The position numbers and the translations under genes were made by a program. Source: Eledone cirrhosa (Eukaryota). From it: a DNA stretch of 64,000 nucleotides. Where the stretch lies: contig OZ024757.1 in NCBI GenBank assembly GCA_964016885.1, forward strand, positions 31,062,001 to 31,126,000, written 5' to 3'. Positions 26,930 through 63,261 of this stretch are shown here, in pieces; the first letter of the stretch is position 1, and every line of letters starts with the position of its first letter. Under the pieces are notes generated by a model. That model was not told where the DNA came from. It saw only the letters and a program-made list of their open reading frames with translations, and made no database searches.

Positions 26930-27181
26930 TTAATACAACTGATAGCTGGAGAACATAAGGAGTAGGGATCGAATGAGTTTGGGGTACTTCCAGACAAACG
27001 TTGCTGATGATGATGATGATGAGGATGATGCTAAACACATGAGGGTATGGTTGTTACATAACGACGACTTGCAACACATTTTCTTCAGGTTTGGCACCTT
27101 GGACAGACAGAGACATTCTTTAGAGTTGTTAAGGCACTGGAATTTGATGAAGAAAGAATCTTCGCGTTGAAGGATTTCTAT
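26930..27181 (-). CDS. Coding exon 4 (terminal): C-terminal half of the LU domain, Ser linker and putative GPI signal
   Basis: After the acceptor ctaatttcag| (phase 0) it reads [83 protein letters not shown]. CCxxxxCN is the hallmark end of LU domains. This frame is absent from the ORF track. Confidence 0.88.
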
Positions 27182-27223
27182 CTGAAATTAGATCAAAGAA
27201 AAAAAAAGAATTATAATAAAATT

Positions 27224-30120
27224 TACACCTCACTCCTACGTAGCTGGTCTCATACGAGGCGTTTTTAATGTTAGGGACCCCAGTGATGTTACAGCTCAGA
27301 CCCATGTAGGTTAAACTGGGCTCTGATGTATATCATAGGGGGTTTATTGGACGTTTTAACGGTAGAGATTCGAGTATTACACCTCACACCTATGTAGGTT
27401 TAGCTGGTCTCATACGAGGCGTTTTTAATGTTAGGGACCCCAGTGATGTTACAGCTCAGACCCATGTAGGCTTAACTGGGCTCTGATGTATATCAAAGGA
27501 GGTTTATTGGACGTTTTAACGGTAGAGATTCGAGTATTACACCTCACACCTATGTAGGTTTAGCTGGTCTCATACGAGGCGTTTTTAATGTTAGGGACCC
27601 CAGTGATGTTACAGCTCTGGGCTCTGGTGTATATCAAAGGAGGTTTATTGGACGTTTTAACGGTAGAGATTCGAGTATTACACCTCACACCTATGTAGGT
27701 TTAGCTGGTCTCATACGAGGCGTTTTTAATGTTAGGGACCCCAGTGATGTTACAGCTCAGACCCATGTAGGTTTAACTGGGCTCTGATGTATATCAAAGG
27801 TGGTTTATTGGACGTTTTAACGGTAGAGATTCGAGTATTACACCTCACACCTATGTAGGTTTAGCTGGTCTTATACGAGGCGTTTTTAATGATAGGGACC
27901 CCAGTGATGTTACAGCTCAGACCCATGTAGGTTAAACTGGGCTCTGATGTATATCAAAGGAGGTTTATTGGACGTTTTAACGGTAGAGATTCGAGTATTA
28001 CACCTCACACCTATGTAGGTTTAGCTGGTCTCATACGAGGCGTTTTTAATGTTAGGGATCCCAGTGATGTTACAGCTCAGACCCATGTAGGCTTAACTGG
28101 GCTCTGATGTATATCATAGGGGGTTTATTGGACGTTTTAACGGTAGAGATTCGAGTATTACACCTCACACCTATGTAGGTTTAGCTGGTCTCATACGAGG
28201 CGTTTTTAATGTTAGGGATCCCAGTGATGTTACAGCTCAGACCCATGTAGGTTAACTGGGCTCTGATGTATATCAAAGGAGGTTTATTGGACGTTTTAAC
28301 GGTAGAGATTCGAGTATTACACCTCACACCTATGTAGGTTTAGCTGGTCTCATACGAGGCGTTTTTAATGATAGGGACCCCAGTGATGTTACAGCTCAGA
28401 CCCATGTAGGTTAAACTGGGCTCTGATGTATATCAAAGGAGGTTTATTGGACGTTTTAACGGTAGAGATTCGAGTATTACACCTCACACCTATGTAGGTT
28501 TAGCTGGTCTCATACGAGGCGTTTTTAATGATAGGGACCCCAGTGATGTTACAGCTCAGACCCATGTAGGTTAAACTGGGCTCTGATGTATATCAAAGGA
28601 GGTTTATTGGACGTTTTAACGGTAGAGATTCGAGTATTACACCTCACACCTATGTAGGTTTAGCTGGTCTTATACGAGGCGTTTTTAATGATAGGGACCC
28701 CAGTGTTGTTACAGCTCAGACCCATGTAGGTTTAACTGGGCTCTGATGTATATCATAGGGGGTTTATTGGACGTTTTAACGGTAGAGATTCGAGTATTAC
28801 ACCTCACACCTATGTAGGTTTAGCTGGTCTCATACGAGGCGTTTTTAATGATAGGGACCCCAGTGATGTTACAGCTCAGACCCATGTAGGTTTAACTGGG
28901 CTCTGATGTATATCAAAGGAGGTTTATTGGACGTTTTAACGGTAGAGATTCGAGTATTACACCTCACACCTATGTAGGTTTAGCTGGTCTCATACGAGGC
29001 GTTTTTAATGTTAGGGATCCCAGTGATGTTACAGCTCAGACCCATGTAGGCTTAACTGGGCTCTGATGTATATCATAGGGGGTTTATTGGACGTTTTAAC
29101 GGTAGAGATTCGAGTATTACACCTCACACCTATGTAGGTTTAGCTGGTCTCATACGAGGCGTTTTTAATGTTAGGGATCCCAGTGATGTTACAGCTCAGA
29201 CCCATGTAGGCTTAACTGGGCTCTGATGTATATCATAGGGGGTTTATTGGACGTTTTAACGGTAGAGATTCGAGTATTACACCTCACACCTATGTAGGTT
29301 TAGCTGGTCTCATACGAGGCGTTTTTAATGTTAGGGATCCCAGTGATGTTACAGCTCAGACCCATGTAGGCTTAACTGGGCTCTGATGTATATCATAGGG
29401 GGTTTATTGGACGTTTTAACGGTAGAGATTCGAGTATTACACCTCACACCTATGTAGGTTTAGCTGGTCTCATACGAGGCGTTTTTAATGTTAGGGACCC
29501 CAGTGATGTTACAACTCAGACCCATGTAGGCTTAACTGGGCTCTGATGTATATCAAAGGTGGTTTATTGGACGTTTTAACGGTAGAGATTCGAGTATTAC
29601 ACCTCACACCTATGTAGGTTTAGCTGGTCTCATACGAGGCGTTTTTAATGTTAGGGATCCCAGTGATGTTACAGCTCAGACCCATGTAGGTTTAACTGGG
29701 CTCTGATGTATATCATAGGAGGTTTATTAAACGTTTTAATGGTAGAGATTCGAGTATTACACCTCACACCTATGTAGGTTTAGCTGGTCTCATACGAGGC
29801 GTTTTTAATGTTAGGGACCCCAGTGATGTTACAGCTCAGACCCATGTAGGTTTAACTGGGCTCTGATGTATATCAAAGGAGGTTTATTGGACGTTTTAAC
29901 GGTAGAGATTCGAGTATTACACCTCACACCTATGTAGGTTTAGCTGGTCTCATACGAGGCGTTTTTAATGTTAGGGACCCCAGTGATGTTACAGCTCAGA
30001 CCCATGTAGGCTTAACTGGGCTCTGATGTATATCATAGGGGGTTTATTGGACGTTTTAACGGTAGAGATTCGAGTATTACACCTCACACCTATGTAGGTT
30101 TAGCTGGTCTCATACGAGGT
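27224..30120. repeat. 120-bp intronic tandem satellite, about 24 copies
   Basis: Near-identical 120-bp units; one unit near 27617 has a 19-bp deletion, and a degenerate terminal copy extends to ~30220. Confidence 0.95.
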
Positions 30121-31674
30121 TGTATCTCATAGGAAATTTCTTGAGTCTTTTAACGATAAGGAGGACCTCCAGTGTTATATCTCATACCTGTATTGGTTGA
30201 GCTGGTTTCCTACGAGGTCGTATTCCGTCGAGGTTAACTTTGTCTTTCATCCTTACGGGGGTCGATAAAATAAAGTACCAGTAATGCACTGGGTAATTGC
30301 TGGCATTGTGCCAAAAGTAGAAACAATTATTATTAGTAGGAGTAGTAGTAGTACTGTTGTTGTTGTTGTCATTATTGTTATTGTTTCATAATCTAGAATG
30401 TAATGGAGCCTGGTTCTGTGTTTCAGTTTGGAGATTTATTTTAATGAATTCGACATAGTGTAGAATTTTTATTCAAAGAAAATGGTTGACTGTTGAGTGT
30501 TGACAGCTGCTGGTAGAATCAATAGTGCCAGAGATATTTTAGGAATGGTAAATGACGGTTCCAAAACTCTCGCAGACAATGTATTGGCATGAATAGAAGC
30601 AATTAAAATGACAGTCGCCTCACTAAAGACAGCAACACACATATTCATACACACACACACACACACATATATATATATATATATATACACATATATGTGT
30701 AGACATACACACACACACACACACACACACACACACACACACACACACACACACACACACATATATATATATATACACATACACACGTGTAGACATACAC
30801 ACACACACACACATATATATATATATATACACATACACATATATGTGTAGACACACACACACCTATATATATATATATGTACACACACACACAGACACAC
30901 ACATATATATATACATACACACACATGCTCACATACACGTATGTATATATATATATATATATAAACACACACACACGTGTGTATAATTATATATATATAT
31001 ATAAGCACACTCAGCAATACACAGAAAGAAACATACACGGTAACACAGCAATGCACACACACACACACACGCTCACGTTTTTAACGAATATCATAATGTG
31101 TGTGTGTGTGTGTGTGTGTGTGTGAGTCCCAGTATTTTGTGCAAGCCTGCAGCTACACGTGTGTGTATGGGTGTATGCGTAAATAAACAGTTCTGTGAAA
31201 ACACGTGTAATTATGAATATGCGTGTAAGCATATATATATATATTTATTATATTTACACACATATATATATGTTATATGTATATATATAATATTTACATA
31301 CATATATATATATATTATATTTACATACATATATATATATATATATATATATATATATATTATATTTACATATATATATTTACACATATTCTTGACTCTG
31401 TGCTAGGAGGTATCGTTGAGGATACACACACACCCACACACACATATATATATATATATATATAGGCACATAGATGCATGTATGTGTATTTCTCTGATTC
31501 AAACGAATGTATGCTCTGTATAAATTAGCATATATTAAGCATGTAGCTGAGCGGTAGATTGTGTATGTGTGTGTAGTATGTGTGTATGTATATAGTATGT
31601 GTGTGTATGTATGTATGTATGTAGTATGTATGTATGTATGTGTGTATGTATGTATGTAGTATGTATGTATGTAT

Positions 31675-61744: not shown

Positions 61745-61822
61745 CAGCCTGTTCCAAAATATGTATAGTCACTTCAACAGCATTTTAATAAATATGTGTA
61801 TACATATTTTTAGGCCACCTTG
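61745..61822. mobile_element. Tc1/mariner-type MITE (decayed); partial copy at 62055-62099
   Basis: Same internal sequence as the copies at 8829 and 21221. Confidence 0.5.
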
Positions 61823-63224
61823 TAGGTATATATTTATATATTTATATATATATATATATGTGTGTGTGTGTGTGTTTGTTTGTATATGGGTGTTTGCGTT
61901 TATTTTACGATCAATAAAATAAGTATTGAAGTCGATATAATCGATCAACATCCTCAATCCAACACCACAACCACCATTACAACCACCATTACAAAATAAA
62001 ATACAAAAATAAAATTATAGGGTCTCCCAAAACATTAATACACCATTCTAATAAATATTGCCTGTACATAAATGTGTATACATTTTTTGGGACATCTTGT
62101 ATATATATATATATGTATATATACACATATATATATACACATATATATACATATATACATATACATATATATATATATATATATATATATATATATATAT
62201 ATACACACGCACAAATGAAATCGATCTCAGTACATATTTTATAGATCCCATTTGTGTATCATATATATCTATCTGACTATATATATATACATTACAAAAA
62301 TGTGATCTATAAAATATGTACTGAAATCGATTTATTGGAGACTAATCATCCCCCCCTCCCCCGGTCACCACCAATAATTAAAGGTGATGCTCCAGTTTGG
62401 CGGCAGTCAAATAGCTGAAACCAATAGATTTTCGATATATATATATATATATATATATATATATATACACACACACACACAAATAGGCACATATCTCTCT
62501 CTCTCTCTACATATATATATATATAGCTCTGTACAATAGATAGAGCACTCTTTTTTCTTTTACCTAATACTTAACACAAAACATATATATATATAATATA
62601 ATATATATGTATACATATATATATATGTATATATATGTATATATATATATATATATATGTATATATATATGTATATATATATGTGTGTATATATATATAT
62701 ATATATATATATATATATATTGTTATACTTGGGGAGGGCCATATTGTTGTAATAATATTGCCAGAATTAATAACAACACACTCACTTTGGTTGGTTTACG
62801 CTTCTGTATCTTTTATATCAGTTAATTTATTTGGTCCTCATTGTTTACCATTGACTGACCAAAGGTCAAAGATACAGATATAATGTTATATATATATATA
62901 TATATATATATAATTGTCTCTACTTTAGGCACAAGGCCAGCAATTACCCCGTGCATTACTGGTACTTTATTTTATCGACCCCGTAAGGATGAAAGGCAAA
63001 GTCAACCTCGGCGGGATTTGAACTCAGATCGTAAAGGGACGTAACTATGCTGGAAAGCATGGCGTCCGACCCTCTACTGATACTGCCAATCCACCGCGTT
63101 ATATATATATAATTGTTTCTACTTTTGGCACAAGGCCAGCAATTACCCAATGCATTACTGGTACTTTATTCTATCGACCCCGGAAGGATGAAAGGCAAAG
63201 TTAAGACATAAAAATCAAACTCAC

Positions 63225-63261
63225 CAATAATTATAGAAAGAAACATCTTCATTTCTGACAT
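63225..63261 (-). CDS. Coding exon 1 of a mucin-LU(Ly6/uPAR)-GPI gene: MSEMKMFLSIII(G), first half of the signal peptide
   Basis: The minus strand reads ATG TCA GAA ATG AAG ATG TTT CTT TCT ATA ATT ATT G|gtgagt, a perfect donor in phase 1 that matches the phase-1 acceptor at 49898. The joined peptide MKMFLSIIIGFLIVVVKG-QT is signal-peptide-like. The start codon is uncertain: in-frame ATGs lie at 63303, 63261, 63252 and 63246. Confidence 0.75.

What the first reader, a model, noticed from the sequence alone, without database searches (positions are those of the whole stretch)
26930..63261. Hidden 4-exon gene: signal peptide, mucin region, 12-Cys three-finger (Ly6/uPAR) domain and GPI-like tail
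Seen: four exons with canonical splice sites and matching phases (1, 0, 0) join into ~381 aa across 36 kb of repeats. The terminal exon's frame is absent from the ORF track. Known: LU domains end in CCxxxxCN and usually have 8-10 Cys, and GPI-anchored LU proteins such as lynx1 and Drosophila quiver/sleepless modulate nicotinic receptors and Shaker channels. Unusual here: the ~245-aa mucin lies N-terminal (membrane-distal) to the LU domain, a topology like the disordered N-terminus of GPIHBP1. The first motif is C-x4-C rather than C-x2-C, and there are 12 Cys, including a CLC and a Cys after the CN, suggesting an extra disulfide. Inference: this is a lineage-specific surface or mucus protein, speculatively a modulator of cephalopod nAChR-family receptors.
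Basis: partly seen in the sequence, partly recalled or inferred. Interest (0 to 1): 0.75.

Follow-up and report, generated by a model that had tools for sequence, protein, structure and literature searches.

The report
Octopus mucin with divergent three-finger domain
This is a real single-copy octopus gene, already modelled in two other species as a nameless mucin, whose fast-changing sugar-coated stalk is followed by an almost unchanging cysteine-rich domain predicted to have the three-finger (Ly6) fold, so it likely works as a cell-surface or secreted binder of one conserved partner that is still unidentified.

Summary
Four minus-strand exons (phases 1, 0, 0, all GT-AG) join into 381 aa. RefSeq models from Octopus sinensis and O. 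bimaculoides share the exon 2-3-4 joins and the stop position, so the gene is not hidden; only the identity of its Cys domain is unannotated. That 83-aa, 12-Cys domain is 80/83 identical to both orthologues, while the mucin is 43-47% identical. A three-finger (LU) fold is likely: all 10 structure neighbours of the ESM Atlas model are LU/three-finger proteins (TM 0.60-0.72). Against it, Pfam finds nothing and two AlphaFold2 models were too poor to judge. The GPI-like tail is weak (hydropathy about one third of octopus QVR-type tails). The four-exon layout with a disordered exon 2 is already known from GPIHBP1 and SP-10. What differs: C-x4-C start, an extra Cys pair, phase-0 introns, and no detectable relatives outside Octopus. 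No spliced reads were available. Nothing supports nicotinic-receptor modulation, and closer quiver-type genes lie elsewhere in this genome. Verdict: a divergent variant of a known kind, moderate interest.

The parts
63225..63261 (-). Exon 1: start codon and first 12 residues of the predicted signal peptide; phase-1 donor G|GTGAG
   Evidence: ranks 2 of 201 candidate first exons against the O. bimaculoides N-terminus. Least certain exon; other in-frame ATGs at 63303, 63252, 63246.
49873..49898 (-). Start of exon 2: rest of the predicted signal peptide (hydrophobic core; cleavage after V-K-G judged by eye)
   Evidence: Best 11-residue Kyte-Doolittle mean 3.27; equivalent segment in both orthologues. 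SignalP was not available.
49144..49872 (-). Rest of exon 2: 243-aa low-complexity mucin-like region (S+T 32%, S+T+P 38%, 11 N-glycosylation sequons, no Cys, mildly acidic first 80 aa)
   Evidence: 43% and 47% identical to the orthologues; a second allele in the same DNA sample differs by +6 and -15 bases, both in frame.
36559..36660 (-). Exon 3: first 34 aa of the Cys-rich domain (Cys 1-5); phase 0 on both sides
   Evidence: identical in protein to both orthologues; single copy.
27035..27181 (-). Exon 4, first part: rest of the predicted LU domain (7 Cys, with CxC, CC-x4-CN and a Cys after the CN)
   Evidence: ESM Atlas structure neighbours all LU/three-finger; single copy.
26930..27034 (-). 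Exon 4, last part: Ser-rich linker, weakly hydrophobic tail (possible GPI signal) and TAA stop
   Evidence: 26/32 identical to the orthologues; best 9-residue hydropathy 2.12, 13-residue 0.98.
49899..63224 (-). Intron 1 (13,326 nt, phase 1, inside the signal peptide)
36661..49143 (-). Intron 2 (12,483 nt, phase 0)
   Evidence: join reproduced in both RefSeq proteins
27182..36558 (-). Intron 3 (9,377 nt, phase 0, one residue after Cys 5); holds a 160-bp tandem array
   Evidence: join reproduced in both RefSeq proteins

Best explanation
This single-copy octopod gene encodes a 381-aa protein with a predicted signal peptide, a 243-aa fast-evolving mucin-like region and a nearly invariant 12-cysteine domain predicted to fold as a divergent three-finger (LU) domain, and it likely sits on the cell surface through a GPI anchor, or is released, and binds one conserved partner of the animal's own. 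Shown: the exons, the reading frame, the orthologues, the conservation contrast, single copy. Predicted: secretion, the three-finger fold, disulfides 1-5, 2-3, 4-6, 7-8, 9-10 plus one extra bond between the second Cys of the CxC and the Cys after the CN. Inferred: if anchored, the LU domain lies next to the membrane and the glycosylated, disordered N-terminus extends outward into the glycocalyx or mucus, where it acts as spacer, shield or hydrated coat and needs no exact sequence. The LU surface is the working part and is held constant because its partner is a slowly evolving host protein, for example a junction, adhesion or secreted-enzyme component of an epithelium, as in the GPIHBP1 layout. 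My odds: real gene 0.97; LU fold 0.85; GPI anchor 0.5; conserved self partner given LU fold 0.7.
For: Gene model and orthologues. Conservation by region, window against O. bimaculoides: mucin 103/217, Cys domain 80/83, tail 26/32; the two Octopus species are 83/83 in the domain and 185/217 in the mucin. Fold: 10 of 10 listed structure neighbours of the Atlas model of P0001 residues 262-346 are LU, QVR, sleepless or three-finger clusters, TM by query 0.60-0.72, the top row meeting the tool's bar for PF00021; feature neighbours are also LU or TGF-beta receptor ectodomains, but at 0.75-0.79, lead level only; the only PDB sequence match at E<=10 is the Ly6 protein 2n99, E 0.39. Ten of the 12 Cys map onto the LU pattern, ending in CC-x4-CN with a non-glycosylated Asn, as defined in PMC6600238 section 2. 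Both AlphaFold2 models place a beta-hairpin between Cys 5 and Cys 6, where finger 2 lies. Single copy.
Against: No Pfam family at E<=10 for the isolated domain, and only two unrelated weak families for the whole orthologues. Both AlphaFold2 models are low confidence (pLDDT 50.7 and 45.2) and put a helix in the finger-1 region. The Atlas model is itself poor over the whole protein (pLDDT 0.44, pTM 0.28), and all lean on the same Cys pattern. With Cys positions fixed, similarity to 7 octopus LU-type sequences is not significant after multiple testing (p 0.03-0.71). The tail is much less hydrophobic than octopus QVR-type tails and has a basic residue in its core. The disordered region is far less acidic than that of GPIHBP1 (12 D/E in 80 aa against 21 in 26), so electrostatic steering cannot be carried over. 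The partner and the tissue are pure inference.
Confidence: 0.5

Rival explanations
1. It is a secreted, unanchored protein like mammalian SP-10/ACRV1: a disordered region and a C-terminal LU domain released into mucus, gland secretion or gametes, with the tail kept as a short amphipathic helix.
For: Weak tail hydropathy, and the tail is 26/32 conserved, more than I would expect of a discarded signal (inference). SP-10 has the same extra disordered exon and is secreted (PMC6600238; PMC4839075 Table 3 lists ACRV1 as acrosomal and without GPI).
Against: A Ser/Ala run, a spacer and a terminal hydrophobic stretch directly after the last Cys is the usual GPI layout of LU genes; all 20 Fasciola gigantica Ly6 proteins were predicted to be GPI-anchored (PMC8763315). 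A species-recognition role fits poorly with an 83/83 identical domain in two species.
Confidence: 0.25
2. It is a lynx1- or quiver-like modulator of nicotinic or chemotactile receptors or of Shaker channels.
For: Single LU domain with a possible GPI tail; sleepless and QVR clusters are among the structure neighbours (rows 2 and 6 of 10); very strong conservation would suit a conserved receptor; such roles are documented in fly and mammal (PMC6600238).
Against: No QVR match for this domain; QVR-family loci exist elsewhere in the genome, 3 of 5 over the cut-off, and this locus is not among them; no C-x2-C start; any three-finger domain would find these neighbours; LU proteins have many non-neural roles.
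Confidence: 0.1
3. It is a decoy or co-receptor for TGF-beta/BMP ligands derived from a type I receptor-like or BAMBI-like ectodomain, having lost the transmembrane and kinase parts and gained a mucin exon.
For: CC-x4-CN is shared with the three octopus Activin_recp loci; one of them (L034) aligns over 66 columns and shares an E-I-L stretch after Cys 5; a TGF-beta receptor II cluster is feature neighbour 3; a conserved ligand would explain the invariance.
Against: The L034 similarity is not significant with Cys fixed (p 0.057, one of 7 tests); finger 1 has 14 residues against 6-7 in those receptors; no PF01064 match for this domain; no TGF-beta receptor among the 10 structure rows.
Confidence: 0.08
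4. The Cys-rich domain is not three-finger but an unrelated disulfide-rich fold that happens to end in CC-x4-CN.
For: No Pfam match; helix predicted in the first part by both AlphaFold2 runs; non-canonical first motif and intron phases; no relatives outside Octopus.
Against: 10 of 10 Atlas structure rows are LU-type with 61-84 residues aligned; ten Cys fit the LU spacing; the AlphaFold2 models are too poor to count against.
Confidence: 0.07

Closest known systems
Octopus sinensis XP_036367652.1 (mucin-5AC-like) and O. bimaculoides XP_052831447.1 (LOC128250450)
   Same: Orthologues: same exon 2-3-4 joins, 80/83 identical Cys domain, same tail length and stop position.
   Different: Mucin only 43-47% identical; CxC reads CPC; neither name mentions an LU domain; the O. 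sinensis model has an N-terminus that matches a common dispersed repeat and is probably mis-predicted.
GPIHBP1 (mammals)
   Same: Four-part gene: signal exon, extra exon for a disordered N-terminal segment, two LU exons, GPI tail (PMC6600238, passages).
   Different: GPIHBP1 is mammal-only with a short, very acidic segment (21 D/E in 26 aa); here 243 aa rich in S/T/N and only mildly acidic; GPI uncertain; 12 Cys. The likeness is most likely convergent (inference).
SP-10 / ACRV1 (mammalian acrosomal protein)
   Same: Extra exon for a disordered N-terminal segment of variable length before a single LU domain.
   Different: SP-10 is secreted, without GPI, and acrosomal; this protein has a 34-aa tail after the last Cys, and its tissue is unknown.
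Drosophila quiver/sleepless and septate-junction Ly6 proteins (boudin, crooked, coiled, crimpled); Pfam QVR
   Same: Single LU domain; long finger 1 (14 residues between Cys 3 and 4, against 13-16 in octopus QVR-type loci); structure neighbours.
   Different: No C-x2-C start, CC rather than CxC before x4-CN, no QVR match, phase-0 internal intron one residue after Cys 5 where the two split octopus QVR-type loci have phase-1 donors 6-8 residues after Cys 5, long N-terminal mucin.
LYPD6 and type II TGF-beta receptor ectodomains (LU domains with added disulfides)
   Same: An added, non-consensus disulfide near loop 3 is precedented (PMC6600238).
   Different: Here the extra Cys are two residues after Cys 7 and seven residues after Cys 10, beyond the CN; the passages I read describe no such placement; no transmembrane helix or kinase.

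Membership tests
LU / three-finger domain superfamily (definition of PMC6600238, section 2) | 60-90 residues with 10 conserved cysteines | tested here: met
   83-aa domain, 12 Cys of which ten fit the pattern; assignment of the ten is by spacing.
LU / three-finger domain superfamily (definition of PMC6600238, section 2) | Non-glycosylated Asn directly after the tenth cysteine (CC-x4-CN end) | tested here: met
   CC-x4-CN in all three species; the sequon falls on the next Asn, not on this one.
LU / three-finger domain superfamily (definition of PMC6600238, section 2) | Three-finger fold | tested here: inconclusive
   Atlas model: 10 of 10 rows LU-type, TM 0.60-0.72, in favour; AlphaFold2 models pLDDT 50.7 and 45.2, too poor to judge.
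LU / three-finger domain superfamily (definition of PMC6600238, section 2) | Disulfides 1-5, 2-3, 4-6, 7-8, 9-10 | not testable with these tools
   No coordinates or chemistry available.
LU / three-finger domain superfamily (definition of PMC6600238, section 2) | Typical, not obligatory: signal exon plus two LU exons, phase-1 introns, internal intron at the tip of loop 2 | tested here: not met
   Signal exon (phase 1) and two LU exons present, but introns 2 and 3 are phase 0 and intron 3 lies about 7 residues before the predicted hairpin tip.
Canonical Ly6/CD59-type proteins (PF00021 screen as used in PMC8763315) | C1-x2-C2 N-terminal motif | tested here: not met
   C-x4-C in all three species; criterion.
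Canonical Ly6/CD59-type proteins (PF00021 screen as used in PMC8763315) | Pfam clan profile match by sequence (UPAR_LY6, Toxin_TOLIP, UPAR_LY6_2, QVR, Activin_recp) | tested here: not met
   0 families for the isolated domain and for the single exons; HMMER filters hide most matches above E 0.1.
GPI-anchored LU proteins | C-terminal GPI signal: small-residue site, spacer, hydrophobic tail | tested here: inconclusive
   Ser/Ala run and spacer present; tail hydropathy 0.98-1.40 (13 residues) against 2.98-3.28 in two octopus QVR-type tails; no GPI predictor available.
Quiver/sleepless (QVR, PF17064) | Match to the QVR profile | tested here: not met
   Not matched; 5 other loci match in this genome, 3 over the cut-off.
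Quiver/sleepless and lynx prototoxins | Binds and modulates nicotinic receptors or Shaker | not testable with these tools
   Needs electrophysiology or binding assays.
TGF-beta family receptors / BAMBI | Transmembrane helix after the LU domain, with or without a kinase | tested here: not met
   All three models stop 32-34 aa after the last Cys; best 19-residue hydropathy 0.78-0.95; no kinase match in 123 downstream minus-strand frames over about 127 kb (frames under 48 unmasked aa were not scanned).
Gel-forming mucins (the RefSeq name 'mucin-5AC-like') | VWD, C8, TIL and cystine-knot domains (recalled definition) | tested here: not met
   No such Pfam family in either orthologue; only the S/T-rich composition is shared.

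The most novel reading that the evidence does not exclude
An octopod-restricted, almost invariant three-finger domain with its own disulfide and intron pattern has independently arrived at the GPIHBP1/SP-10 design and serves as a dedicated accessory subunit or carrier for a cephalopod innovation, such as the chemotactile or other expanded nicotinic-type receptors, with the mucin arm gating access from seawater or mucus.
Probability: 0.08. Interest if true: 0.75.

Novelty: new variant of a known kind. Interest (0 to 1): 0.36.

Why it matters
Molluscs carry many LU genes (83 per genome on average in PMC13719153) and that paper states that the functions of invertebrate three-finger proteins are unknown, so one more member is no surprise. 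This one stands out in three ways. Standard Pfam scanning misses it, which shows that profile-based counts of the family are incomplete. Its domain is nearly frozen across octopods while its neighbour exon has turned over by half, the opposite of the high diversity usual for LU domains, which points to one conserved partner and makes a pull-down a clean experiment. It is an invertebrate parallel to the GPIHBP1/SP-10 gene layout. It would matter much more if the partner proved to be a cephalopod-specific receptor; nothing here shows that.

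Tried and rejected
RNA: no RNA holder listed for exon 2; 4 of the 21 small-share 'RNA?' runs were laid (X1 on exon 2, X3, X6, X20 on exon 4) and none had a contig on the stretch; X22-X24 are one sample, and an X23 contig runs from exon 4 into intron 3, so they behave as DNA. 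None of this bears on expression. AlphaFold2 on the single domain (pLDDT 50.7) and on a 6-row alignment that forced octopus LU-type rows under it (45.2) gave poor models; VIA-align (best Z 4.6, unrelated folds) and Foldseek (no match at E<=0.001) on them listed no LU protein and are uninformative. Alignments A1 and A2 misplaced cysteines and were not folded; rows L029-L032 and L036 were left out of A3. Genome searches with PF00021, PF00087 and PF16975 found nothing anywhere, controls included, so they show no absence. Homologue searches gave only the two Octopus proteins (one search used exon 4 alone and returned one); they need shared words or cover part of the domain, so distant relatives in squid or other molluscs are not excluded. 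The acceptor-scan null missed the true exon 4 because my filter was too strict, and is discarded. One search used an exon 2 end off by one base, corrected. Literature: no paper holds the accession numbers or LOC id; topic searches listed no paper on an octopus LU-mucin; the supplement of PMC13719153, which lists the proteins found in 25 mollusc genomes, could not be read and may include the orthologue. A Drosophila Ly6 survey that I recalled was not held, so I could not check whether insect Ly6 genes with S/T-rich N-termini are described. Earlier scan notes held nothing relevant. No complex prediction was run because no partner is indicated.

Full report
1. The observation. The window is an AT-rich, repeat-laden animal sequence, lying on contig C18 of a 3.0-Gb genome. 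On the minus strand four exons, 63261-63225, 49898-49144, 36660-36559 and 27181-26930, are bounded by GT-AG introns of phases 1, 0 and 0 and join into 381 codons and a stop. Exon 2 is open in one frame only (0 stops against 9 and 37), and 0 of 20,000 shuffles of its bases stayed open. The CC-x-CN type motif occurs once in the unmasked part of 264 kb. Independent support comes from two RefSeq proteins, Octopus sinensis XP_036367652.1 ('mucin-5AC-like') and O. bimaculoides XP_052831447.1 ('uncharacterized'), found with exon 4 as query. Both read through the exon 2/3 and 3/4 joins as modelled and end at the equivalent position. I do not know whether these models rest on RNA. Exon 1 is less secure: it ranks 2nd of 201 candidates against the O. 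bimaculoides N-terminus and is the only one of the 12 best that restores the split Gly. The O. sinensis N-terminus matches a dispersed repeat and is probably an annotation error. In DNA contigs of one sample, a second allele of exon 2 differs by two substitutions and by +6 and -15 bases, both in frame; with two events this is weak support. Junctions could not be tested with RNA.

2. Anatomy. Residues 1-21 have a hydrophobic core (best 11-residue hydropathy 3.27) and a plausible cleavage site; SignalP was not available. The next 243 residues are Cys-free, 32% Ser+Thr, with 11 N-glycosylation sequons and a mildly acidic start. The 83-residue domain that follows holds all 12 Cys, spacing 4,4,14,4,16,6,1,10,0,4,6, and is basic (12 K/R against 5 D/E). 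A Ser run and a 24-residue tail end the protein. Conservation is very uneven: against O. bimaculoides the mucin is 103/217 identical, the domain 80/83, the tail 26/32; between the two Octopus species 185/217, 83/83 and 30/32. The window's species is therefore a more distant octopod (inference), and the domain is under much stronger constraint than the mucin. The gene is single-copy as far as three genome searches see. No second LU gene or kinase exon showed within 100 kb on either side of the window: 123 downstream minus-strand frames and 97 others gave only retroelement reverse-transcriptase matches and weak hits below cut-off; short exons were not scanned.

3. Is the domain three-finger? For: in the ESM Atlas, all 10 listed structure neighbours of the O. 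sinensis domain are LU, QVR/sleepless or three-finger clusters, TM 0.60-0.72 over 61-84 residues, the first meeting the bar for PF00021. Feature neighbours agree but score under 0.8, which shuffled proteins often reach. The only PDB sequence match at E<=10 is a Ly6 protein, E 0.39. Ten Cys fit the LU consensus, with the non-glycosylated Asn after the tenth (PMC6600238 section 2). Against or neutral: Pfam finds nothing; both AlphaFold2 runs were low confidence (50.7 and 45.2), gave the finger-2 hairpin but a helix in finger 1, and their fold searches were uninformative; the Atlas model is poor over the whole, mostly disordered, protein; similarity to 7 octopus LU-type sequences beyond the Cys is not significant. 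These lines are not independent of the Cys pattern. I put the fold at 0.85.

4. Departures from the canonical family. The start is C-x4-C, where a published Ly6 screen requires C-x2-C (PMC8763315). Two extra Cys probably form one added bond; added bonds are known in LYPD6 and type II TGF-beta receptors, so this is a variation, not a new principle. Introns 2 and 3 are phase 0, and intron 3 sits one residue after Cys 5, while LU genes generally have phase-1 introns with the inner one at the tip of loop 2; two split QVR-type loci in this genome have phase-1 donor sites 6-8 residues after Cys 5. The tail is far weaker than two octopus QVR-type tails (13-residue hydropathy 0.98-1.40 against 2.98-3.28), so GPI anchoring is an even bet; it is too short and polar for a transmembrane helix.

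5. How it most likely works. The signal peptide would route it to the secretory pathway; the mucin region would be heavily glycosylated and disordered; the LU domain would fold through five consensus bonds and one extra; the tail would be swapped for a GPI anchor, or the protein released. With the mucin N-terminal, an anchored protein holds the LU domain at the membrane with the glycan arm outside. A near-frozen LU surface beside a free-running arm argues for one conserved host partner and against toxin, immune arms-race or species-recognition roles (inference). Rivals are a secreted SP-10-like protein (0.25), a receptor or channel modulator (0.10), a BMP/TGF-beta decoy (0.08) and a non-LU fold (0.07).

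6. Comparison and novelty. GPIHBP1 and SP-10 are described as the only two human LU genes with an extra exon for a disordered N-terminal segment (PMC6600238, Fig. 4 legend): the same layout, probably reached independently. Three-finger proteins are common in molluscs, 2,086 in 25 genomes (PMC13719153); its main text lists several unusual architectures but not a mucin arm, which a Pfam-based annotation would not show; its supplement could not be read. No paper in the held library names either orthologue. What I saw of each paper: PMC13719153, parts 1-3 of 4 of the text; PMC6600238, passages and section 2; PMC8763315, PMC4839075 and PMC4476152, passages; all others, search listings only. I file it as a divergent variant within the LU superfamily, not as a canonical Ly6, a quiver orthologue, a TGF-beta receptor or a gel-forming mucin.

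7. Verdict. Real gene, correctly read by the first stage; fold likely as proposed; GPI uncertain; receptor modulation unsupported. New variant of a known kind, interest 0.36.

Noticed in passing
L029 (G000:C3:117729602-117729889) and L030 (G000:C4:316602983-316603267): An intronless quiver/Ly6-type gene (signal peptide, 10 Cys, strong GPI-like tail) lies on two chromosomes within a shared 1.14-kb segment at 97% identity; the C4 copy ends right after the last Cys and lacks the tail. It looks like a processed or mobilised copy; a frame about 2 kb away in L043 resembles a Helitron protein (recalled, untested).
   Followed up: partly
L034 and L036 (G000:C2:110038102-110038344 and 109745776-109746048): Two single-exon Activin_recp-type ectodomains about 290 kb apart on one strand; L036 resembles BAMBI (recalled), L034 may be a diverged paralogue.
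   Followed up: partly
P0001 residues 1-36 (O. sinensis XP_036367652.1): The annotated N-terminus matches a dispersed repeat present several times in this region, so the RefSeq model has probably taken a false first exon and lost the signal peptide start.
   Followed up: yes
window 22413-26923: A 4.5-kb AT-type microsatellite begins a few bases after the stop codon; the first clear polyadenylation-like hexamers lie inside or beyond it (23509, 21419, 20442), so the 3' end of the transcript is unclear.
   Followed up: partly
window 2389-7995 and 27241-30119: Two homogeneous tandem arrays: 115-bp unit, about 49 copies, 96% matches; and 160-bp unit, about 18 copies, 97-98% matches, inside intron 3 only 60 bases from the exon 4 acceptor.
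   Followed up: no
window 63303-63262: An in-frame ATG 14 codons upstream of the modelled start would add a Gln-rich stretch encoded by a CAA repeat before the signal peptide.
   Followed up: no
window 44061-44528, 51589-52077; L016:5281-7404; L017:1121-2032: Retroelement fragments: the two flanking frames match Pfam RVT_1 (E 4.7e-31 and 3.7e-05); the two intronic ones resemble LINE C-terminal ends by eye but had no Pfam match.
   Followed up: partly
window 10001-12000: 200 N bases (assembly gap or withheld stretch) downstream of the gene.
   Followed up: no
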